Source: a phage. From it: a stretch of 60,068 nt of DNA. Within the stretch, counting starts at the first letter, position 1; the number at the start of each line of letters is the position of its first letter. The position numbers and the translations under genes were made by a program. The stretch lies in the sequence record PZ445425.1; one strand, written 5' to 3'. Below the pieces are notes generated by a model. The model did no database searches, was not told the DNA's origin, and was given only the letters and a program-made list of their open reading frames with translations. This document shows, piece by piece, positions 1-57,254 of the stretch.

Positions 1-1560
1 ATGGAGCTAAACCGACAACCTGATAACATGCCGCGAGTTGTCTGGAAACCACATCCAGGTTCACAGACACTCGCTCTATCCTGCCCCGCTGATATTATCC
101 TATACCACGGAACTCGCGGTCCTGGAAAAACGGACTGCCAGCTTATGCGTTTCCGTAAGAATGTTGGTGTAGGGTACGGTAAATTTTGGAAGGGTATTAT
201 ATTCGACCGTGAATATAAAAACCTTGATGACCTTGTAACTAAATCCCAGCGTTGGTTTCCTGAATTTAAAGACGGGGCTAAATTCCTTAGCTCTAAGTCT
301 GATTATAAATGGGTTTGGCCTACAGGTGAAGAGCTACTGTTCCGCGTTGCTTGTAAAGAAAAGGATTACTGGTCTTATCACGGTCACGAATACCCATTTA
401 TCGGATGGAACGAATTAACAAAATATCCGGACGGGCGTTTGTTTGAAGCTATGATGTCCTGTAACCGTTCATCTTTCTTACCAGAAGATAACCCAATTAT
501 TAATCCAGATGGTACGGTCACATATTTACCGGATATCCCTCTTGAAGTGTTTGCTACCAGTAACCCGTTTGGTGCGGGGCATAACTGGGTTAAGAAACGC
601 TTCATTGACGCTGCACCGATGGGTAAAATACTCAGGAAGACTACGCGAGTGTTTAACCCGAGGACGCAGAAAGACGAAGATGTGGTTACGACGCAATGCC
701 ATATCTTTGGTTCGTACCGTGAAAACAAAAACCTAAGTCCAAAATATATTGCAGAACTTATGTCTATCACAGACCCGAACAAGCGTGCTGCATGGTTGGG
801 CGGGAGCTGGGATATCACCTCCGGCGGTATGTTCGATGATCTGTGGCGTAGCACTGTTCATAAAATACGCCCATTCCCAATCCCATCAAGCTGGAAGATT
901 ACACGTTCTTTCGACTGGGGTTCTTCAAAACCATTCTCCGTTGGCTGGTGGGCTATTAGTGACGGTTCGGATGTTGTACGTGAAGATGGTACTACCTTCT
1001 CAACTGTTCGCGGTGACTTGTTCCGTATTAACGAATGGTACGGCACTAACGGTAAAACAAACGAAGGCCTACATTTGCTGGACTCAGAGATTGCAAGCGG
1101 TATACTGGAGCGGGAATTGGCCTGGGGTATACACGACCGTGTAGTTCCTGGACCTGCGGATAACTCTATTTGGGATTTGGAGAACAATAACTCTACCGCC
1201 GCAACAATGGCGAAGAAAATCCGTCTTAACGGCAAGCTGTATAACGGTATCCATTGGAAGAGAAGTGATAAATCTGCTGGGTCGCGTAAACGCGGATGGC
1301 AGAAAATGCGTGAGTTTCTTAAAGCTGCATTGAGGGAAGATGCGAACGGTAAACCTTTGCCGGGACCACGTGAAAATCCAGCAATGTATGTTTTCGATAA
1401 CTGCAATTATTTCTTTGAACTGGTTCCAAGTCTTCCGCGCGATGAAGTAGATCAGGACGACGTTGATACGGAATGTGAAGACCATATGGGCGATGAAGTA
1501 CGTTATATGGTTCTGGATCAAGCTGTTTATACAGGTGTCGGTAAAACTATCGGTATTTAA
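1..1560 (+). CDS. terL: terminase large subunit
   Basis: 519-aa ORF with Walker A-like GTRGPGKT near the N-terminus; first gene of the structural operon, directly followed by portal. N-terminus may extend beyond window start. Confidence 0.8.
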   Translation: MELNRQPDNMPRVVWKPHPGSQTLALSCPADIILYHGTRGPGKTDCQLMRFRKNVGVGYGKFWKGIIFDREYKNLDDLVTKSQRWFPEFKDGAKFLSSKSDYKWVWPTGEELLFRVACKEKDYWSYHGHEYPFIGWNELTKYPDGRLFEAMMSCNRSSFLPEDNPIINPDGTVTYLPDIPLEVFATSNPFGAGHNWVKKRFIDAAPMGKILRKTTRVFNPRTQKDEDVVTTQCHIFGSYRENKNLSPKYIAELMSITDPNKRAAWLGGSWDITSGGMFDDLWRSTVHKIRPFPIPSSWKITRSFDWGSSKPFSVGWWAISDGSDVVREDGTTFSTVRGDLFRINEWYGTNGKTNEGLHLLDSEIASGILERELAWGIHDRVVPGPADNSIWDLENNNSTAATMAKKIRLNGKLYNGIHWKRSDKSAGSRKRGWQKMREFLKAALREDANGKPLPGPRENPAMYVFDNCNYFFELVPSLPRDEVDQDDVDTECEDHMGDEVRYMVLDQAVYTGVGKTIGI

Positions 1561-28088: not shown

Positions 28089-28315
28089 TAGCGATCCTCG
28101 ATTGCTCTAATTGTGGTTAAATCTAATTCACAGGTTGGAGGGTATCCATAAAGTCCCATTTGTTTTCCTTGTGCATTAAACCATGTGCCTGACGGATCCT
28201 GCCACTGCTTAGGTGTCTTGTGGAGAAATACTACTCTGTTTTCACCGTAATAATTAATTCTTACGCCTGTGTGAGTATATTTACGTTTACTTTTTGGTCT
28301 TCTTAAGTTAGCCAT
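28088..28315 (-). CDS. hypothetical basic protein
   Basis: 75-aa ORF, stop/start overlap with neighbours. Confidence 0.4.
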   Translation of the reverse strand: MANLRRPKSKRKYTHTGVRINYYGENRVVFLHKTPKQWQDPSGTWFNAQGKQMGLYGYPPTCELDLTTIRAIEDR

Positions 28316-29235
28316 CAGAACAACTCCATTACACGATCACGGAACGTGCCGTCATGGGTAGCATTAATATTTGCAGCAATTACACCATACGCCCATAAAT
28401 TGAAGGCGGCACGTGATTCATAGATTGTTGATAAACGTTCGTAAGTAAAACCGTTTTGCTCAAGGTATTTAAGGACAGCGTCCTGTTCAATTTCAGTTAG
28501 CGTTGAAACATGCTTACCAAAATGGTGACGGTCTGGTGACTTATCAGATACGCGCATTGGGCCCCACGGAGGAGTAACCACACTTCCAAACGCTGCCGCT
28601 TGAATCCAGGAGGATGAGTCACAGCTATACCACGGGTAACGCTCCATAATGGTTGTGGAGGTGATACCAAATGCATGAAGCTTAATCTTAGGACGACCGC
28701 TACCGTCGCAGATGTATTTGTCCCACATGCGGTCCAGCCAAGTTTTAAGCGTGTCCGTTGAACGCCCTACCATGCCACCAATCGTGATATATTCGTAGTT
28801 CTTCATGTAATATTCAAGATAGCGGAAGTCCTCACCAAAGTGAAAGCACGGTAACGGTTTAGCACCGCGTGCTTCCATTTCAAGCTGGTTACGGTAGGTT
28901 TGCAGTGGATCACCGATACCATCAAGCACCGAGGCCATTACAGCACCATCTTCTACCCGCAGAATATCTTTATTGCGTTTGATGTACTCACAGTATTCAA
29001 CAATATCAATGTGAGCACCTAACGAGTGCGCGGAGAATGCACCAGAGTCGAGAAACACTTTAGCCCCATCCGCACGCATTTGATCAACATACTTCTGACG
29101 CCCAACGTAGTGGTAGGATTCCAAAATATGGGGCAGATTGCGCGTGATATTTTTCTCATGCTCAGACAGCTTTTCATAACGCTGCTGTCCAGGCATATAT
29201 CCGTTCGTGTAAACTGCTGCCATAAAAACGTTCAT
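28315..29235 (-). CDS. dpdA: DpdA-like DNA-guanine transglycosylase (TGT family)
   Basis: 306 aa; VFLDSGAFS motif resembling the TGT catalytic DSGGFQ; no zinc subdomain; co-located with preQ0 synthesis genes. Confidence 0.6.
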   Translation of the reverse strand: MNVFMAAVYTNGYMPGQQRYEKLSEHEKNITRNLPHILESYHYVGRQKYVDQMRADGAKVFLDSGAFSAHSLGAHIDIVEYCEYIKRNKDILRVEDGAVMASVLDGIGDPLQTYRNQLEMEARGAKPLPCFHFGEDFRYLEYYMKNYEYITIGGMVGRSTDTLKTWLDRMWDKYICDGSGRPKIKLHAFGITSTTIMERYPWYSCDSSSWIQAAAFGSVVTPPWGPMRVSDKSPDRHHFGKHVSTLTEIEQDAVLKYLEQNGFTYERLSTIYESRAAFNLWAYGVIAANINATHDGTFRDRVMELF

Positions 29236-29440
29236 TTTTGGAATGGTCCTCCAAACTGATCAATTAATTCTAAAGTACGCCAAGCTTCATTAAATGCTTC
29301 GTCCGCTCGATGTTTAGCGTCAATAAGCTGCTGCTTTAAAACATCTGTAGGCGCATCATTCTGTATTGCAGAGCAAGCATCCGCAGTACCTGCTTTAAGC
29401 TGGTAGAATGCTGTCTCTAAGATTAGTTGTCTTGACATAT
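29232..29440 (-). CDS. hypothetical small protein
   Basis: Start trimmed to ATG 29440 (RBS GGAGGA). Confidence 0.4.
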
Positions 29441-29453
29441 TTCCTCCAATGAC

Positions 29454-29490
29454 TAAAAAGCCCATACCAGTATTATGACCGATATGGGCT
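29454..29490 (-). terminator. terminator-like hairpin downstream of folE
   Basis: agcccata / tatgggct stem with 16-nt loop; TTTTT on minus strand. Confidence 0.45.
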
Positions 29491-29509
29491 TGATCTGTAA
29501 AGCTATCTA

Positions 29510-30103
29510 TTATTTACAAGCTTCAAGGAACTCCCGGCGCCAAGCATCACCTTTAAACGATGCAGCACCGCGGAAAGCTTTAGTAATGGTAGAGCTTCCG
29601 CATACCTGCTTAACCCCGCGCGATTCCATGCACATATGCTTAGCATCGATGTAAACGCACACAGCTTTCGGGTCTAAATGCTCCTGGATAGCATCTGCAA
29701 TCTGGTTAGTAAGACGTTCCTGAACTTGCAGTCGACGACTAAAAGCATCCACAACGCGAGACAGCTTACTAAGCCCAACGATCTTCCCATTGGGGACATA
29801 ACCCACAACAGCACGCCCGATAATAGGAGCCATGTGATGCTCACAATGACTGTATACAGGAATATCACGGACAATGACCATTTCATCCGTACCTTCCGCA
29901 CCATCTTCAAAGGTTTTAAACAATCCAGCGATATCTACATCGTAACCGCTAAACCACGTTGCATAAGCTTTCGCTACACGCTCCGGAGTTTCCTCCAGCC
30001 CTGGGCGCAGAACCGCGCTAACTTCAATTTGGGATAGTAAAGTACGCACAGCGTTAGCAATACGGAATTGAACACCTTCACTATTAATACTATATTTAGA
30101 CAT
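29510..30103 (-). CDS. folE: GTP cyclohydrolase I
   Basis: FolE-like sequence including SHCEHHM motif; alternative ATG at 30133. Confidence 0.8.
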   Translation of the reverse strand: MSKYSINSEGVQFRIANAVRTLLSQIEVSAVLRPGLEETPERVAKAYATWFSGYDVDIAGLFKTFEDGAEGTDEMVIVRDIPVYSHCEHHMAPIIGRAVVGYVPNGKIVGLSKLSRVVDAFSRRLQVQERLTNQIADAIQEHLDPKAVCVYIDAKHMCMESRGVKQVCGSSTITKAFRGAASFKGDAWRREFLEACK

Positions 30104-30134
30104 GGTTTGCAGTTTCCTTGTTAATGTGGTCATA

Positions 30135-30671
30135 TTACAGGCTATAGTTTACGTGGCATTTCGAAGTTTCTTCGATGGTGCATTCTACAAGTTGAACACC
30201 ATGTTCGTCAAGCAGTAGCGGACCAATTACTTCAACCATATATGCAGCTAGGTTTTCCGCAGTTGGGTTGAACGGCAAAGATACCAGTGAATCGTTAAAA
30301 GCTTTAAGATCTTCATCCCCTTCACCGAAAGTAGGCCAACCGCGTTCAGATTGAGTATCCGTTTCAATACAACATTGCAGTCCGTTGATCAACATATCCT
30401 TTTCCCAATGTAGAAACTTATGATCCCAGTTATCTTCTAGCCACTGGCAGAGCGTAGCTTTAACCACACTAAAGTCAATCACGCGCCCAACGCTGTCCAG
30501 ACCGTCCTCAATCAGCTTTCCTCGTGTCACTACTTTTCCGCATCCATGCTTCGGAGCAACCTTAAAGTGAAACTTATAGTTGTGACCGTGGAGGTGGCGA
30601 CATTTGCTTTCATGACCTACAACACGATGTCCGGCGCAAATTTCATGGGAACGAATTACTGTATAGCTCAT
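30135..30671 (-). CDS. queD: 6-carboxy-tetrahydropterin synthase
   Basis: CxxxHGH zinc motif (EICAGHRVVGHESKCRHLHGH). Confidence 0.8.
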   Translation of the reverse strand: MSYTVIRSHEICAGHRVVGHESKCRHLHGHNYKFHFKVAPKHGCGKVVTRGKLIEDGLDSVGRVIDFSVVKATLCQWLEDNWDHKFLHWEKDMLINGLQCCIETDTQSERGWPTFGEGDEDLKAFNDSLVSLPFNPTAENLAAYMVEVIGPLLLDEHGVQLVECTIEETSKCHVNYSL

Positions 30672-31258
30672 TTTAATACCTCTTTAGACTGTTCAATTTC
30701 TAATGCACGCTGTGCGGATGCAATAATGTCTTTCAAATCTTCTACCAGACTTTTATGACCACGTTCGCCCGGCTGCAACGCCTTTTTAATCAAATGTTGT
30801 AAAGCTGGGTTAGTTGTTTTCCAAGCTTCCAAGACATCATACACGTCCACGATGCATTTTACAACATTGCCGTTTTGATCTTTACCATAAATAATTTTCT
30901 GATATTTATTCATGGGAATTTTAGATGGTTCGTATTTCGTAAAAACTGCACCATTAAATGTATTACTTATGCTTATTTCACTAGAAGGGTGATGATACAC
31001 TCCGGAGCGAGTATTTTCCTGGGCTTGTTTGACGTAATCATCCGCAACGATATATCGCCAGGCTATAATATCTTGAATTTTATAAGGGCTATTCTCATCC
31101 ATAGCCGAACGCCCTTCTATAGCCCAGTCCCATCCATGTAATAGATTCTTAACGTGTGTGCCGTTGCGCAAACGAACTTCAAACTTTTCATTGCGAAGAA
31201 AGATTGGCATTCCTTTCCCATCGTGCTGGTGCCAAATTTTATTAAGATTATCTTTCAT
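30668..31258 (-). CDS. hypothetical protein embedded in deazaguanine cluster
   Basis: 196-aa ORF between queD and the transporter gene; no motif recognised. Confidence 0.5.
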   Translation of the reverse strand: MKDNLNKIWHQHDGKGMPIFLRNEKFEVRLRNGTHVKNLLHGWDWAIEGRSAMDENSPYKIQDIIAWRYIVADDYVKQAQENTRSGVYHHPSSEISISNTFNGAVFTKYEPSKIPMNKYQKIIYGKDQNGNVVKCIVDVYDVLEAWKTTNPALQHLIKKALQPGERGHKSLVEDLKDIIASAQRALEIEQSKEVLK

Positions 31259-31260
31259 TT

Positions 31261-31740
31261 TTACGCTCTCGCTGTACGTGAATGAACTTCATAAACAACC
31301 CAAAGGATGGCAGATGCTGTGAACTTACTTAAGCTCATTGCCACCATCGATCCCGGATTAACAATACCTATAATACTTAAGAACACAATGGAGTCAATTG
31401 GTACAGCTACCAAAGAGCTGATAAATACACGTTGATGAAACGGCTTCTTAGTAATCGTGTATACCGCATAGTCCGCAAACTCACTAAGCGCAAAAGACGC
31501 AACGGATGCAACTACAACCGCAGGATCCCCAAATGCCCAGCTAAGGATGCAACCCACAATCATTGCAGGGATAACGCCTTTGCCAGCGTTACGCTGTGCA
31601 TAATCCCGCAGGACAAAGATAATACCTACAAAGAAAGCCATCATGGGGACTACGCCAAGAGGCGTGTTAAGCATTGGAAGGTAGGAAAAGCCCAGGTTTA
31701 CGAATGTAATTGCAGCCAGATAAGCAACGATAAATTTCAT
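31261..31740 (-). CDS. YhhQ/Vut-family membrane protein (putative queuosine-precursor transporter)
   Basis: Multi-pass membrane protein; start set to ATG 31740; assignment from context and hydropathy. Confidence 0.4.
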   Translation of the reverse strand: MKFIVAYLAAITFVNLGFSYLPMLNTPLGVVPMMAFFVGIIFVLRDYAQRNAGKGVIPAMIVGCILSWAFGDPAVVVASVASFALSEFADYAVYTITKKPFHQRVFISSLVAVPIDSIVFLSIIGIVNPGSMVAMSLSKFTASAILWVVYEVHSRTARA

Positions 31741-31860
31741 ACTTTTGTTCTCCAGTTTTAACAGCGTTATTTGCTGGTTGTTGGGTTTAAAAGCTTTAGT
31801 AGTATAGTTGGGTTCCCGCACCCTAAACAATGCGCTAGCGGTGCGGTTTTCGCGGTAAGA

Positions 31861-32583
31861 TCAAACGTGTTTGCTGTAAGCGTTATCCATAAATTCAGTG
31901 TAACCCTTAGCACGGAGTTTACACGCCGGGCATTCCCCGCAACCGTATCCCCAGTCATGTAGAGTACGACGGACGCCGTTATAGCAAGTATGGGACTGCT
32001 CAATTACTGTGGTTAAGAAGCCAACCTTATCCGCCAGCTCAAACGTTTCTGCTTTATTTAAACGCATAAGCGGGGTAACGAAATGAATATCTGTTTCATA
32101 TCCAACGTTTAACGTAGCTTCAAGCAAGTCTACAAACTGCTGGCGGCAATCTGGATAACCGCTATAGTCTGTTTCACAAACGCCCGTAACCACATACCGA
32201 GCGCCAACTTTCTGTGCGTAGGCGTGCGCGGTAGTCAGGAAAAGAGCATTACGGTTTGGCACAAAGCTTGCTGGAAGGTTGTTGTGCTGTTCGTGATGTT
32301 CGTTAACATCACCTTCGTTCCCGATTAAAGCGCTATTGCCAATCTGTTTCAAAGCAGGTAATTCAAAGACAACAAATGGGACATCGTGCTCTTTACAAAT
32401 TTGATTAGCACAAGCCAGCTCAATGTTATGACGTTGACCGTATGCAAAACCAATAGCATAGACCTTATCATAGTTATTAAGTGCAAGACCTAAACAGGTC
32501 ACGCTGTCCTGGCCGCCAGACAGGACGACAACGGCGGAGTTATGATTTTTTACAGGGAATACCAGTTTATCTAATTTATTCAT
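31861..32583 (-). CDS. queC: 7-cyano-7-deazaguanine synthase
   Basis: PP-loop SGGQDS motif and C-terminal Cys cluster; start set to ATG 32583. Confidence 0.8.
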   Translation of the reverse strand: MNKLDKLVFPVKNHNSAVVVLSGGQDSVTCLGLALNNYDKVYAIGFAYGQRHNIELACANQICKEHDVPFVVFELPALKQIGNSALIGNEGDVNEHHEQHNNLPASFVPNRNALFLTTAHAYAQKVGARYVVTGVCETDYSGYPDCRQQFVDLLEATLNVGYETDIHFVTPLMRLNKAETFELADKVGFLTTVIEQSHTCYNGVRRTLHDWGYGCGECPACKLRAKGYTEFMDNAYSKHV

Positions 32584-32584
32584 C

Positions 32585-32773
32585 TTAGAACCCTTTAAGG
32601 CTAATATTAAGATTAATGACCACTTGTTCAACTACATCATCAGATGTCATCTGACGCTTATGAATTTCAAGCTCCGAATGTATGTTCTTGGATGCAGCAC
32701 GACAGATAGCGTCATTCAGCTCGTCTTGTAAACGTTGCATCTTCTGCATAAGAACCACAGTCTCTTCATTCAT
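32585..32773 (-). CDS. hypothetical small protein
   Basis: 62-aa ORF between queC and queE. Confidence 0.35.
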   Translation of the reverse strand: MNEETVVLMQKMQRLQDELNDAICRAASKNIHSELEIHKRQMTSDDVVEQVVINLNISLKGF

Positions 32774-32978
32774 CTTCTACACCTTTAATATTACAAGGAT
32801 TAATTGTTACATTTGACATCACAATTGGATGATTGCGTGCCCCGATTGTACTAACGTGATTAATATCTAATTCTACATGCACTCCCTGCATGGTAGCGTG
32901 AGCAATTGCAGAATTAAGTTTTTCTACCAGCTCAGTGATCATTTCCTGATGCTGTTTCGCTTCTTCTAAAGTGATCAT
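32766..32978 (-). CDS. hypothetical small protein
   Basis: 70-aa ORF between queC and queE. Confidence 0.35.
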   Translation of the reverse strand: MITLEEAKQHQEMITELVEKLNSAIAHATMQGVHVELDINHVSTIGARNHPIVMSNVTINPCNIKGVEDE

Positions 32979-33685
32979 TATTCCACCCCAATATATTTGT
33001 GAACCTGAAGCTGCAACGTGTACCCGTGTTTCATACAGCTTTGGACAACCGCTTGGATGTTACTGTGGTTAAGATCTTCATCCTGCTCGTCCATTGGCTG
33101 TAAATATATCTTACCCTTGAACCCCTTCGGAGGTCTAGCGATAAATGGCGTAGCTTGATGATCTAATGCTTGAAGAGGTAAACCGTCTTCCACGTTTACA
33201 CAGCACGCTTTAAGTACATATTTAAATGCATTAGCGCGGTACAGCACAGAAGGATGAATCTTTGAAGTCTTGGGACTACATACAATCACAGGTAACTGGG
33301 AAAAGTTCTTAGGTAAAGGCATAGACCCATTCGTTTCAATCTGTACAAGATACCCGCGCGATAACAGTTGTTCAATAAACGGGTTAATTTGCTGACGGAA
33401 CGGTTCACCCCCAGTAATAACCACAAGTGAGGTGCTATTGCCTGATTCCAGCTTACGGCTTTCGATTAAACGCATGATATCAACAATGTGGTAAAGAGAA
33501 CGACCAACAGTATAATCCGTGTCGCAGCCCGGGCATTGCAGGTTACATCCAGCAAGGCGCACAAATACCGCAGGTTGACCGCAGAATGGACCTTCACCCT
33601 GAATGGTAGAGAATACCGAATGCACGTCTAAATACATATCGTTTTCTTTAGAACGAGACTCGGGAGCTTGTTGATTAATATTCAT
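32978..33685 (-). CDS. queE: 7-carboxy-7-deazaguanine synthase (radical SAM)
   Basis: CNLQCPGCDT cluster typical of QueE. Confidence 0.8.
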   Translation of the reverse strand: MNINQQAPESRSKENDMYLDVHSVFSTIQGEGPFCGQPAVFVRLAGCNLQCPGCDTDYTVGRSLYHIVDIMRLIESRKLESGNSTSLVVITGGEPFRQQINPFIEQLLSRGYLVQIETNGSMPLPKNFSQLPVIVCSPKTSKIHPSVLYRANAFKYVLKACCVNVEDGLPLQALDHQATPFIARPPKGFKGKIYLQPMDEQDEDLNHSNIQAVVQSCMKHGYTLQLQVHKYIGVE

Positions 33686-33708
33686 CTTAAATCCTCTAGT
33701 GAAAAAGA

Positions 33709-33730
33709 AAGCGCCTCATTGGGCGCCTTC
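33709..33730 (-). terminator. weak terminator-like hairpin
   Basis: gcgcc / ggcgc stem with T-rich tract on minus strand. Confidence 0.3.
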
Positions 33731-33754
33731 ATTATAACGTGATATGTTTTGATA

Positions 33755-34567
33755 TTACAAGCCGTTCAAAGCTTCCGGTACTGGCACAGGTACGCGACCA
33801 GTTACACCATTAAATTTCTTCCAGCGTGCATATTGGGTTTTAACGGTATCTTCGTTCAGACCATGCCGACCAGCCAGGTTCAGAACATAAGAGATCGGAG
33901 CAGGCTGACCCAGCGTAGCGCTAATCTGGTCCATCAGAGCCCAGGCACGACCGCAGGAAGTTTCCGGTTGTGGGCGACGAACACCGTTCTGTTCCGGCAT
34001 ACGATTAGCTTCTTTTTCTTTCTCGCGGAGCTCTTTAGCGCGTGCTTTTTCCGCTTCTTTTTCTGCCTGTTTTGCAGCACGGATCTTGTCTTTGAAGCCT
34101 TTAATAGTAGCTTCCAGACCATCCACCAGACCCTGGGCAGAAGTTACAGCACCGGACAGGTCTTCACCTTTAGACTTCTTAACGACAGCTTTCAGCTCTT
34201 TCAGAGCTTCTTTAATGGTCTTCAGGTTTGCAGATCCCTGAGTTTCTGCTTCCGTGATTTGTTCAACAGTGCTTTCGTCGGTGACGGTAGCCAAAGAGTT
34301 TTTCAGGATTTCAGCAGCGTTAGCAATCGCATTAAATTTGTTTTCCGCTTCAGTGCGGATTTCAGCTTGTTTCTTTTCAGCGGCAGCTTTTTTCTCTGCT
34401 TCTTTTTTCTCTTTTGCTACGCGTGCAGCTTCAGCGGCAGCGGCTTTCTTAGCTTCTGCATCATTCACAGTAGCTTCTTTCTTTGCAGGTTTAGCAGATT
34501 TTGCAGCGGCAGCAGCGGCAGCAGCGGCAGCGGCTTTTTTATCTTCAATGTTGCTCATTCTCTTCAC
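33755..34567 (-). CDS. Ala/Lys-rich low-complexity protein, possibly histone-H1-like DNA-binding
   Basis: 270 aa with poly-Ala and AKKA/EKK repeats plus a C-terminal globular region. Confidence 0.45.
   Translation of the reverse strand: MKRMSNIEDKKAAAAAAAAAAAKSAKPAKKEATVNDAEAKKAAAAEAARVAKEKKEAEKKAAAEKKQAEIRTEAENKFNAIANAAEILKNSLATVTDESTVEQITEAETQGSANLKTIKEALKELKAVVKKSKGEDLSGAVTSAQGLVDGLEATIKGFKDKIRAAKQAEKEAEKARAKELREKEKEANRMPEQNGVRRPQPETSCGRAWALMDQISATLGQPAPISYVLNLAGRHGLNEDTVKTQYARWKKFNGVTGRVPVPVPEALNGL
34503..34534. repeat. GCN trinucleotide repeat (encodes poly-Ala)
   Basis: gcagcggcagcagcggcagcagcggcagcggc. Confidence 0.7.
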
Positions 34568-34685
34568 TCCGAATTGTTATGGGTTCGTTTGTTACCAACG
34601 GGGTTAAATGTACCAAAGGATTTTGTGACACGCAACCCCTTATCTGAATATTTTTAAAAATATTTTTGATCGAGCTTAGAACTTA

Positions 34686-55245: not shown

Positions 55246-55638
55246 ATGCGATTAGTCGTCACCGGAGGTCGAGATTTTAAGCATGTGGAGTATATTTATG
55301 CTCAATTGGATAAGCTGCATATGCAAAGAAGGATAACCACACTTCGCCACGGTGACGCTGACGGTGTTGACCGGATTTGCGCACATTGGGCGGAGCGCAA
55401 CGGTATTAAGACAGAAGCGTTCCCTGCCCCGTGGGACAATCTTTCCTTACCAAATACCAAGATACGGTATAACGCCAAGGGTGCTTATAATGCACAAGCT
55501 GGCGCTTACCGCAATCAATTAATGCTGGATACCGATCCTAAACCGGATCACGCTATTGTGTTTCCTGGCGGAGCTGGTACTATGGATATGTACAGACGGA
55601 TTAAAGCATCCGGTATTCCTTACACTTTAGCGGAGTAA
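55246..55638 (+). CDS. Rossmann-like protein, possibly SLOG/DUF2493-like
   Basis: N-terminal VVTGGRDF Gly-rich loop and GDADGVD motif; weak assignment. Confidence 0.3.
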   Translation: MRLVVTGGRDFKHVEYIYAQLDKLHMQRRITTLRHGDADGVDRICAHWAERNGIKTEAFPAPWDNLSLPNTKIRYNAKGAYNAQAGAYRNQLMLDTDPKPDHAIVFPGGAGTMDMYRRIKASGIPYTLAE

Positions 55639-56601: not shown

Positions 56602-56787
56602 ATGACCAAACTATACGCCGGATTGTTTTTATTTGCGACGTTAATGTTCGCTGGACTTTATACCTATACAGTAGTCGAACAACCTTCCACGGTTATCCGA
56701 ATCTTTGCAAGTACAGGGCTTTGCATCTGTCTTATTCTATTTGTTTTATGCATTGTTATTATCCAAGACCAAAGGAAAGTTAAATGA
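56602..56787 (+). CDS. small membrane protein
   Basis: 61 aa with two hydrophobic helices; start codon follows a hairpin gtgtaccc...gggtacac. Confidence 0.45.
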   Translation: MTKLYAGLFLFATLMFAGLYTYTVVEQPSTVIRIFASTGLCICLILFVLCIVIIQDQRKVK

Positions 56788-57254
56788 CTGAAGAATGGAA
56801 AAGAATACCTTTATTTCCAAAGTATGAGGTTTCTACTTTAGGTAGAGTTAGGAGGGCTAACAACCACAAAATATTGACAGGCTGCATATTAGATGGTCGT
56901 AGACGTTATACTTTGCGTCACAATGGTAAGAAATACGGTGTTGATGCTGCAAGATTGATGTGTTACGCATTTCGTGGTCTTGTCGACGGTTATGAGAAAC
57001 TAGATGCACGACATCTTGATGGCAATCCTTTGAATAATGTATTATCTAACGTAGATTGGGGTACACGTAAGGATAACATGGTGGACATGGTTCATCATGG
57101 TAACGCTTGTCATTCGTTTACAAAGGAAGAAGTTCTAAGTATCCGGCAACGAGCAGATGCCGGGGAAAGTCAACACGCTATAGCAAGAAGTATTGGCAGA
57201 AGCGTATCCGTTGTTAACTGTATTGTATTAAGAAAGACTTATAACGAATATTAA
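56784..57254 (+). CDS. HNH homing endonuclease
   Basis: NUMOD4-like N-terminus (WKRIPLFPKYEVSTLGRV), HNH core HLDGNPLNN and C-terminal HTH-like segment. Confidence 0.7.
   Translation: MTEEWKRIPLFPKYEVSTLGRVRRANNHKILTGCILDGRRRYTLRHNGKKYGVDAARLMCYAFRGLVDGYEKLDARHLDGNPLNNVLSNVDWGTRKDNMVDMVHHGNACHSFTKEEVLSIRQRADAGESQHAIARSIGRSVSVVNCIVLRKTYNEY

What the first reader, a model, noticed from the sequence alone, without database searches (positions are those of the whole stretch)
28315..33685. 7-deazaguanine DNA hypermodification cluster (dpdA-like, folE, queD, queC, queE, yhhQ-like)
Four preQ0-synthesis enzymes are recognisable by motif (FolE, QueD CxxxHGH, QueC SGGQDS, QueE CxxxCxxC), next to a TGT-family protein with a DSGAFS active-site-like motif and no tRNA-binding zinc subdomain, plus a putative precursor transporter. 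From established knowledge of phage DpdA systems this predicts replacement of genomic G by a 7-deazaguanine base, most simply dPreQ0 since QueC has no fused amidotransferase, as an anti-restriction measure. Unassigned ORFs in the cluster leave room for a further derivative.
Basis: partly seen in the sequence, partly recalled or inferred. Interest (0 to 1): 0.6.

Follow-up and report, generated by a model that had tools for sequence, protein, structure and literature searches.

The report
Known Seuratvirus dPreQ0 DNA-modification gene cluster

Summary
The window is a Seuratvirus (Queuovirinae) genome. The cluster is 97% identical in DNA to Escherichia phage GottfriedDienst (Bas21) and 92% to CAjan, with the same gene order.

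DpdA, QueC and QueE are 99.7%, 99.2% and 99.6% identical to the CAjan proteins. For CAjan, published LC-MS/MS, knockouts and nanopore mapping show:
- dPreQ0 replaces about 23-32% of G, at GA and GGC motifs.
- The modification depends on dpdA, folE and queC, but not on yhhQ.
- It protects the DNA from restriction enzymes.

My model of DpdA finds the TGT superfamily as its five best structural matches. All nine CAjan pocket and catalytic residues are kept, and there is no Zn motif or extra domain. No amidotransferase, QueF or other tailoring enzyme is detectable in the window. The unassigned ORFs look non-enzymatic; the largest carries a module widespread in phages that lack que genes. So dPreQ0 is the expected end product.

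Verdict: interpretation supported, system already known, low interest.

The parts
32978..33685 (-). queE: radical-SAM 7-carboxy-7-deazaguanine (CDG) synthase, 235 aa
   Evidence: C47NLQCPGC motif. PHROG 2076 'QueE-like' 1.7e-68. The five best NCBIfam hits are QueE models but all are below cutoff. 234/235 identical to CAjan QueE and 64% to 9g QueE, which complements E. coli delta-queE.
32766..32978 (-). p70: 70-aa protein of unknown function
   Evidence: PHROG 26258 only; no Pfam or NCBIfam hit. It has a single Cys, so the inherited label 'radical SAM domain protein' is not credible. Weak paralogue of p62.
32585..32773 (-). p62: 62-aa protein of unknown function
   Evidence: PHROG 24420 only. 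38% identical over 26 aa to p70.
31861..32583 (-). queC: 7-cyano-7-deazaguanine (preQ0) synthase, 240 aa, stand-alone with no Gat domain
   Evidence: Pfam QueC 9.8e-75. TIGR00364 scores 242.9 bits against a cutoff of 150.3. SGGQDS motif. 238/240 identical to CAjan QueC. Only the QueC half of 9g Gat-QueC aligns, at 28%.
31261..31740 (-). yhhQ-like membrane protein, 159 aa; putative preQ0 transporter, dispensable in CAjan
   Evidence: Pfam Vut_1 24.7 bits against a gathering score of 27.2, and TIGR00697 21 bits against 50.95, both sub-threshold. About 4-5 hydrophobic segments. 156/159 identical to CAjan YhhQ. Deleting yhhQ in CAjan leaves the modification unchanged.
30668..31258 (-). p196: two-domain protein of unknown function
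   Evidence: PHROG 23361, unknown function. The C-terminal ~60-aa module (VDVYDVL.AW..NPALQHLIKKALQPGERGHK) is found in 716 phage records, mostly phages without que genes. The AF2 model has no significant PDB fold match. Only 60% identical to its CAjan counterpart.
30135..30671 (-). queD: 6-carboxytetrahydropterin synthase, 178 aa
   Evidence: Pfam PTPS 3.5e-22, above cutoff. C24RHLHGH motif. 81% identical to CAjan, 99% to GottfriedDienst and 72% to 9g QueD, which complements E. coli delta-queD.
29510..30133 (-). folE: GTP cyclohydrolase I, 207 aa
   Evidence: Pfam 3.1e-64. TIGR00063 scores 202 bits against a cutoff of 181.6. 83% identical to CAjan, 100% to GottfriedDienst and 75-80% to 9g FolE.
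29232..29465 (-). p77: small protein of unknown function, probably 68 aa starting at M10 (29438)
   Evidence: PHROG 20065 aligns residues 10-77 to its full 68-position profile. A GGAGG ribosome-binding site lies upstream of the internal ATG.
28315..29235 (-). dpdA (DpdA1 subfamily): DNA-guanine transglycosylase that inserts preQ0 into DNA, 306 aa

Best explanation
The cluster is the Seuratvirus 7-deazaguanine DNA-modification module.

Proposed mechanism:
1. FolE converts GTP to H2NTP.
2. QueD converts H2NTP to CPH4.
3. QueE, a radical-SAM enzyme, converts CPH4 to CDG.
4. QueC converts CDG through ADG to preQ0. These four steps raise the free preQ0 pool in the infected cell.
5. DpdA, a TGT-fold base-exchange enzyme consisting of the catalytic barrel only, flips out G in duplex phage DNA after replication and swaps it for preQ0. 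D206 is the nucleophile and D63 the general base. The expected target motifs are GA and GGC, which hold 28.3% of all G in this genome.

The resulting dPreQ0 DNA resists many type I and II restriction enzymes, but it becomes a target for modification-dependent nucleases such as GrwAB.

What is shown and what is inferred:
- Shown here: gene content, motifs, fold, near-identity to CAjan, and the absence of tailoring enzymes.
- Shown in the literature for the 99.7%-identical CAjan system: the product, the motifs, the gene dependence and the restriction protection.
- Inferred for this particular phage: that the same chemistry occurs.

The YhhQ-like protein is at most an accessory salvage transporter.
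For: - Synteny and 92-97% nucleotide identity with CAjan and GottfriedDienst.
- Protein identities to CAjan of 305/306 for DpdA, 238/240 for QueC, 234/235 for QueE and 156/159 for YhhQ.
- Family assignments, motifs and conserved active-site residues.
- TGT-superfamily fold of the DpdA model.
- No Gat domain anywhere in the window. No amidotransferase, QueF, methyl- or formyl-transferase Pfam family among 56 non-structural ORFs outside the cluster or among the cluster ORFs.
- GA holds 24.2% and GGC 4.1% of G in the window, against 23.96% and 4.28% in CAjan.
- Literature: CAjan DNA contains dPreQ0 only, and the dpdA deletion is unmodified and fully digestible (PMC6884629). The motifs are GA and GGC; folE and queC deletions lose most of the modification, and the yhhQ deletion is unchanged (PMC7544227).
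- 9g folE, queD and queE complement E. coli mutants, and 9g DpdA inserts preQ0 into plasmid DNA but does not complement delta-tgt.
- Queuovirinae resist type I and II RM in vivo (PMC8594841).
- GrwAB restricts all Queuovirinae, and escape mutations map to dpdA (PMC12137116).
Against: - Nothing here is a direct measurement on this phage's DNA.
- DpdA gives no Pfam TGT hit, and only 17 bits against a cutoff of 200 on the NCBIfam bacterial DpdA model. The superfamily link therefore rests on a model whose C-terminal third (residues 209-306) is of low confidence.
- FolE, QueD and p196 are 83%, 81% and 60% identical to CAjan, so the cluster is mosaic rather than identical. It also lacks a 107-aa ORF that CAjan has between queD and the p196 homologue.
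- Published CAjan mass spectrometry targeted a defined panel of deazaguanines, so an unassayed minor derivative cannot be formally excluded.
Confidence: 0.93

Rival explanations
1. The pathway ends in a further derivative (dG+, dADG, dPreQ1 or an undescribed base) made by one of the unassigned ORFs (p196, p77, p70, p62, p75), not in dPreQ0.
For: Five ORFs in or beside the cluster have no assigned function. A p196-like C-terminal module also sits inside the 9g cluster, in gp07. p196 is the most divergent cluster protein relative to CAjan, at 60% identity.
Against: - None of these ORFs hits any enzyme family.
- The p196 module occurs in 716 phage records, and in contigs with no que or dpdA genes. 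Its model has no enzyme-like fold match.
- The other ORFs are 62-77 aa.
- No Gat, QueF, ArcS or methyl- or formyl-transferase is detectable in the genome.
- CAjan, which has homologues of all five ORFs, contains dPreQ0 only: dADG, dG+, dPreQ1 and dQ are each below 6 per 10^6 nt.
Confidence: 0.04
2. The cluster acts on host tRNA (queuosine or preQ0 in tRNA) to tune translation, rather than on phage DNA.
For: The enzymes are homologues of the tRNA queuosine pathway. Many database records still label DpdA 'queuine tRNA-ribosyltransferase'.
Against: - DpdA lacks the Zn site and the C-terminal tRNA-binding domains.
- 9g DpdA, 69% identical, does not complement E. coli delta-tgt but does modify DNA.
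- The dpdA deletion in CAjan removes dPreQ0 from DNA.
Confidence: 0.02
3. The genes are present but the system is inactive in this isolate, for example because of the A182P change in DpdA or the diverged FolE and QueD.
For: There is one substitution in DpdA relative to CAjan. FolE and QueD are 81-83% identical to CAjan.
Against: - P182 is also found in GottfriedDienst DpdA. That phage belongs to the BASEL Queuovirinae set reported as RM-resistant and as restricted by GrwAB.
- Residue 182 is not among the pocket or catalytic residues.
- FolE and QueD are 99-100% identical to the GottfriedDienst proteins, are intact ORFs and score above family cutoffs.
Confidence: 0.01

Closest known systems
Escherichia phage CAjan (Seuratvirus cajan) dPreQ0 system: DpdA1 + FolE/QueD/QueE/QueC + YhhQ (Hutinet 2019, PMC6884629; Kot 2020, PMC7544227)
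   Same: Same gene order, embedded between the DNA polymerase/clamp genes and the helicase gene. DpdA 305/306, QueC 238/240, QueE 234/235 and YhhQ 156/159 identical. The same nine active-site residues. The same fraction of G in GA and GGC motifs.
   Different: FolE is 83%, QueD 81% and p196 60% identical, indicating mosaic exchange. The window lacks CAjan's 107-aa ORF between queD and the p196 homologue. DpdA differs at A182P.
Escherichia phage GottfriedDienst (Bas21, MZ501071), BASEL collection
   Same: Nearest relative of the cluster: 97.1% nucleotide identity over 6 kb, the same ORF set between dpdA and queE, and proteins 96-100% identical. Already annotated as DpdA, FolE, QueD, YhhQ, QueC and QueE.
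   Different: GottfriedDienst has one extra 78-aa ORF between the clamp gene and the p75 homologue. The genome lengths differ (56.6 kb against 60.1 kb).
Enterobacteria phage 9g (Nonagvirus) dG+ (2'-deoxyarchaeosine) system
   Same: Same position next to the polymerase and clamp genes. DpdA is 69%, FolE 75-80%, QueD 72% and QueE 64% identical. A protein with the p196 C-terminal module is also in the cluster.
   Different: 9g has a 471-aa Gat-QueC fusion that gives dG+. The window has a stand-alone QueC only 28% identical to the QueC half, and no Gat domain anywhere. 9g has no YhhQ-like gene and no p62 or p70.
Bacterial Dpd restriction-modification island (bDpdA/DpdB/DpdC; structure 7UI4)
   Different: A different subfamily: the NCBIfam DpdA model gives 17 bits against a cutoff of 200. 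The phage enzyme is 306 aa against 413. No DpdB ATPase or DpdC was found in the window. Modification density is far higher in phages (about 25-30% of G against less than 0.1%, per PMC10516641).
Pseudomonas phage iggy (Queuovirinae) dPreQ0 system
   Same: Same pathway and product, with dPreQ0 inserted by DpdA (PMC10484667).
   Different: Iggy DpdA targets GA only. The CAjan-type enzyme carried here also targets GGC.

Membership tests
Phage DpdA1 (DNA-guanine transglycosylase, TGT superfamily) | TGT-type (beta/alpha)8 barrel fold | tested here: met
Phage DpdA1 (DNA-guanine transglycosylase, TGT superfamily) | Two catalytic Asp residues and the preQ0/guanine pocket residues defined for CAjan DpdA (D63, S64, F67, D105, H132, G153, G154, F189, D206) | tested here: met
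   All nine are present at the same positions. All nine are also invariant in a 43-sequence alignment of homologues.
Phage DpdA1 (DNA-guanine transglycosylase, TGT superfamily) | Sequence membership: orthology with an experimentally validated DpdA1 | tested here: met
   305/306 identical to CAjan DpdA and 69% to 9g DpdA. PHROG 887 at 2.3e-96.
Phage DpdA1 (DNA-guanine transglycosylase, TGT superfamily) | Catalytic domain only: no Zn CxCxxC...H site and no C-terminal tRNA-binding (PUA-type) domains | tested here: met
Phage DpdA1 (DNA-guanine transglycosylase, TGT superfamily) | Inserts preQ0 into duplex DNA, not tRNA | not testable with these tools
   Shown only for CAjan (knockout) and 9g (plasmid assay, no delta-tgt complementation) in PMC6884629.
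Bacterial DpdA (bDpdA, NCBIfam NF041059) / Pfam TGT | Score above the curated profile cutoff | tested here: not met
   NF041059 gives 17 bits against a cutoff of 200. There is no Pfam hit even at E<=10, and no PDB sequence or profile hit. The protein is therefore not a bDpdA or a canonical TGT by sequence; it works like one.
preQ0 biosynthesis pathway (FolE, QueD, QueE, QueC) | All four enzymes present, with family scores and catalytic motifs | tested here: met
   FolE TIGR00063 scores 202 bits against 181.6. QueC TIGR00364 scores 243 against 150. QueD Pfam PTPS scores 79 against 22.4 and has CxxxHGH. QueE has CxxxCxxC, PHROG QueE-like 1.7e-68 and its best NCBIfam hits are all QueE models. However, the QueE and QueD equivalog models score below their cutoffs.
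Gat-QueC / dG+ (Nonagvirus-type) system | Glutamine amidotransferase domain fused to QueC, or ArcS | tested here: not met
   QueC is 240 aa. Residues 1-240 of 9g Gat-QueC have no tblastn match in the window at E<=1e-3. No amidotransferase Pfam family was found in the cluster or in 56 other non-structural ORFs.
YhhQ / COG1738 queuosine-precursor transporter (Pfam Vut_1, TIGR00697) | Profile score above cutoff and a polytopic membrane topology | tested here: inconclusive
   Vut_1 scores 24.7 bits against 27.2, and TIGR00697 scores 21 against 50.95; only about 75 residues align. About 4-5 hydrophobic segments in 159 aa. Deleting yhhQ in CAjan has no modification phenotype.

The most novel reading that the evidence does not exclude
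One of the uncharacterised cluster proteins may be a functional accessory of the phage DpdA system. The main candidate is p196, whose C-terminal module is also encoded inside the 9g cluster; the p62/p70 paralogue pair is a second. Such a protein could help DpdA reach the ~25-30% modification density seen in virions, or could generate a minor derivative not covered by the published targeted mass spectrometry.
Probability: 0.05. Interest if true: 0.45.

Novelty: already known. Interest (0 to 1): 0.12.

Why it matters
[quoted passage not shown] For this window its value is in annotation and prediction:
- The phage DNA should carry dPreQ0 at GA and GGC, about 28% of G.
- It should resist many type I and II restriction enzymes, for example HaeIII.
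- It should give degraded nanopore base-calling.
- It should be sensitive to type III RM and to modification-dependent nucleases such as GrwAB.

No open question is made newly testable by this instance.

Tried and rejected
1. Sequence and profile searches of DpdA against PDB chains found nothing, and Pfam found nothing even at E<=10. The TGT link had to be tested by fold instead.
2. A search for a preQ1 riboswitch or any other Rfam family in the cluster, especially upstream of yhhQ, found nothing at gathering score. The only hit below that was a chance-level sraL match at E 0.4. There are no tRNA genes.
3. For p196 I ran a homologue search, alignment, AF2 model (pLDDT 66) and Foldseek against the PDB. 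There was no match with E<=0.001, and a PDB profile search was empty. Its function remains unknown. A role specific to deazaguanine was rejected because its conserved module is widespread in phages without que genes.
4. The promoter and terminator scan gave counts not clearly above shuffled expectation (18 against 14.1 +/- 4.2, and 10 against 6.3 +/- 2.0). Only one convincing terminator-like hairpin, upstream of queE, was noted.
5. A Pfam scan of 56 non-structural ORFs outside the cluster for tailoring enzymes found only replication, recombination, lysis and homing-endonuclease families.
6. The label 'radical SAM domain protein' inherited by p70 from the CAjan record was rejected: the protein has one Cys and no Pfam hit.


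Full report
**1. What is there**

The region 28315-33685 lies entirely on the minus strand. It contains ten tightly packed ORFs:
- queE, 33685-32978
- p70, 32978-32766
- p62, 32773-32585
- queC, 32583-31861
- a yhhQ-like gene, 31740-31261
- p196, 31258-30668
- queD, 30671-30135
- folE, 30133-29510
- p77, 29465-29232 (probably a 68-aa protein starting at 29438)
- dpdA, 29235-28315

Immediately downstream on the same strand are a 75-aa ORF, the DNA-polymerase clamp-like subunit (28088-27135) and the DNA polymerase (27135-25150). Upstream are two conserved unknown ORFs and a superfamily II helicase.

**2. Is it more than chance?**

Yes.
- FolE: Pfam 3e-64, and TIGR00063 202 bits against a cutoff of 181.6.
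- QueC: Pfam 1e-74, and TIGR00364 243 bits against 150.
- QueD: Pfam PTPS 3.5e-22.
- QueE: below the Pfam radical-SAM and NCBIfam QueE cutoffs, but its five best NCBIfam hits are all QueE models and it matches the PHROG 'QueE-like' family at 1.7e-68.
- DpdA: matches PHROG 887 at 2e-96.

**3. Identity of the window**

The window is a Seuratvirus (Queuovirinae) genome. The 6-kb region is 97.1% identical to Escherichia phage GottfriedDienst (Bas21). It is 91-96% identical to some thirty other Seuratvirus records, including Seurat and CAjan. The right 25 kb is about 95% identical to the same group. Gene order in the cluster is the same as in GottfriedDienst and CAjan.

Identity to the CAjan proteins:

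| Protein | Identity to CAjan |
|---|---|
| DpdA | 305/306 |
| QueC | 238/240 |
| QueE | 234/235 |
| YhhQ-like | 156/159 |
| FolE | 83% |
| QueD | 81% |
| p196 | 60% |

FolE and QueD are 100% and 99% identical to the GottfriedDienst proteins, so the cluster is mosaic. CAjan has one extra 107-aa ORF between queD and the p196 homologue.

**4. The DpdA protein**

Sequence methods alone do not place it in the TGT family:
- There is no Pfam hit even at E<=10.
- It scores 17 bits against a cutoff of 200 on the NCBIfam bacterial DpdA model.
- There is no phmmer or profile hit to any PDB chain.

I therefore built a 43-sequence alignment from homologues and modelled the protein. Mean pLDDT is 69; residues 1-208 are good and residues 209-306 are poor.

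Generic TIM barrels score 10.7 or less.

Kot et al. assigned nine residues to the CAjan DpdA pocket and catalysis: D63, S64, F67, D105, H132, G153, G154, F189 and D206. All nine are present and invariant among homologues. The protein has four cysteines and no CxCxxC motif, and at 306 aa it has room only for the barrel. The single difference from CAjan, A182P, is shared with GottfriedDienst and is not an active-site position.

**5. What the pathway makes**

QueC is a stand-alone 240-aa enzyme. The Gat half (residues 1-240) of 9g Gat-QueC has no tblastn match anywhere in the window. Only the QueC half aligns, at 28% identity. By contrast, DpdA, FolE, QueD and QueE are 64-80% identical between the two genera, so the two sister genera carry non-orthologous QueC genes.

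A Pfam scan of the cluster ORFs and of 56 further non-structural ORFs found no amidotransferase, QueF-type reductase, or methyl- or formyl-transferase. dPreQ0 is therefore the expected end product.

**6. Experimental basis, from the literature**

For CAjan:
- LC-MS/MS found 70,628 dPreQ0 per 10^6 nt, about 32% of G. dADG, dG+, dPreQ1 and dQ were each below 6 per 10^6 nt (PMC6884629).
- A dpdA deletion had no modification, and its DNA was cut by all enzymes tested.
- Nanopore mapping placed the modification at GA and GGC motifs. Deletions of folE, queC or dpdA lost the signal, and deletion of yhhQ did not (PMC7544227).

For 9g:
- The folE, queD and queE genes complement the corresponding E. coli mutants.
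- 9g DpdA does not complement delta-tgt, but it inserts preQ0 into plasmid DNA.

In vivo:
- Queuovirinae of the BASEL collection resist type I and II RM systems but are sensitive to type III (PMC8594841).
- The GmrSD-like GrwAB system restricts all Queuovirinae, and escape mutations map to dpdA (PMC12137116).

In the window, GA holds 24.2% of G and GGC holds 4.1%, 28.3% together. The CAjan figures are 23.96% and 4.28%.

**7. The unassigned ORFs**

None of p75, p77, p70, p62 or p196 hits an enzyme family.

p196 has an N-terminal small beta domain and a C-terminal module of about 60 aa, with the conserved sequence VDVYDVL.AW..NPALQHLIKKALQPGERGHK..DL.DII.SA.RA.
- The module is found in 716 phage records, most of them from groups without que genes.
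- It occurs fused to varied N-termini.
- It occurs in metagenomic phage contigs with no que or dpdA neighbours.
- It is also present in 9g gp07, inside that phage's cluster.
- Its AF2 model has no significant PDB match.

I conclude that it is a generic phage module of unknown function, not a deazaguanine-tailoring enzyme.

p62 and p70 are weak tandem paralogues. The 'radical SAM' label carried by the p70 homologue in CAjan is not credible, since the protein has one Cys and no Pfam hit.

**8. The YhhQ-like protein**

It is 159 aa long with about 4-5 hydrophobic segments. Its matches to Vut_1 and TIGR00697 are partial and below threshold. Calling it a preQ0 transporter is plausible but unproven, and the gene is dispensable for modification in CAjan.

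**9. Verdict**

The system is already known: it has been characterised experimentally in a phage whose key enzymes are more than 99% identical, and it is already annotated as such in the nearest GenBank relative. Interest is low. The only residual novelty is the possibility, which I put at about 5%, that one of the small conserved unknown ORFs is an accessory factor.

Noticed in passing
window 30668-31258 (-), residues ~117-193 of p196: A highly conserved ~60-aa module (VDVYDVL.AW..NPALQHLIKKALQPGERGHK..DL.DII.SA.RA) is fused to many different N-termini. It is present in 716 phage records and has no Pfam family, no PDB sequence match and no fold match. 9g gp07, inside the 9g deazaguanine cluster, carries it too.
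   Followed up: partly
window 31861-32583 (-) compared with L004 5207-6622 (9g Gat-QueC): The Seuratvirus QueC is only 28% identical to the QueC half of Nonagvirus Gat-QueC. The other pathway enzymes are 64-80% identical between the two genera, so the QueC step appears to have been replaced non-orthologously between the sister genera.
   Followed up: partly
window 32585-32978 (-): p62 and p70 are overlapping tandem genes that are weak paralogues (38% over 26 aa, E 7e-5). The p70 homologue is labelled 'radical SAM domain-containing protein' in the CAjan record and in PHROG 26258, but p70 has a single Cys and no Pfam hit, so the label looks like an annotation error.
   Followed up: partly
window 33707-33730 (-), with a promoter-like site at 33760-33731 (-): A strong terminator-like hairpin (9-bp stem, 6 GC pairs, T-run) lies in the 69-bp gap just upstream of queE, overlapped by a 10/12 sigma-70-like match. 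It may mark a transcription-unit boundary at the start of the cluster.
   Followed up: no
window 33755-34567 (-) and the mirror ORF 33749-34657 (+): A 270-aa Ala/Lys/Glu-rich low-complexity protein (poly-Ala run near the N-terminus, GTG start) is conserved in Queuovirinae, about 40% identical to 9g gp09. The 302-aa ORF on the opposite strand is probably an artefact of the low-complexity sequence.
   Followed up: no
window 55246-55638 (+): A 130-aa protein with a SLOG-family YAcAr domain (Pfam PF10686, 5e-19), a predicted nucleotide-binding fold. It lies far from the cluster and no link to it is known.
   Followed up: no
window 56784-57254 (+): An HNH homing endonuclease (NUMOD4 + HNH_3 + HTH_38), a likely mobile insertion that contributes to genome-size differences among Seuratviruses.
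   Followed up: no
window 1-1560 (+): The window starts exactly at the ATG of a 519-aa ORF, and its length (60,068 bp) falls in the Seuratvirus range of 56-61 kb. It therefore appears to be a complete phage genome record rotated to start at a gene, probably the large terminase, which I did not verify.
   Followed up: no
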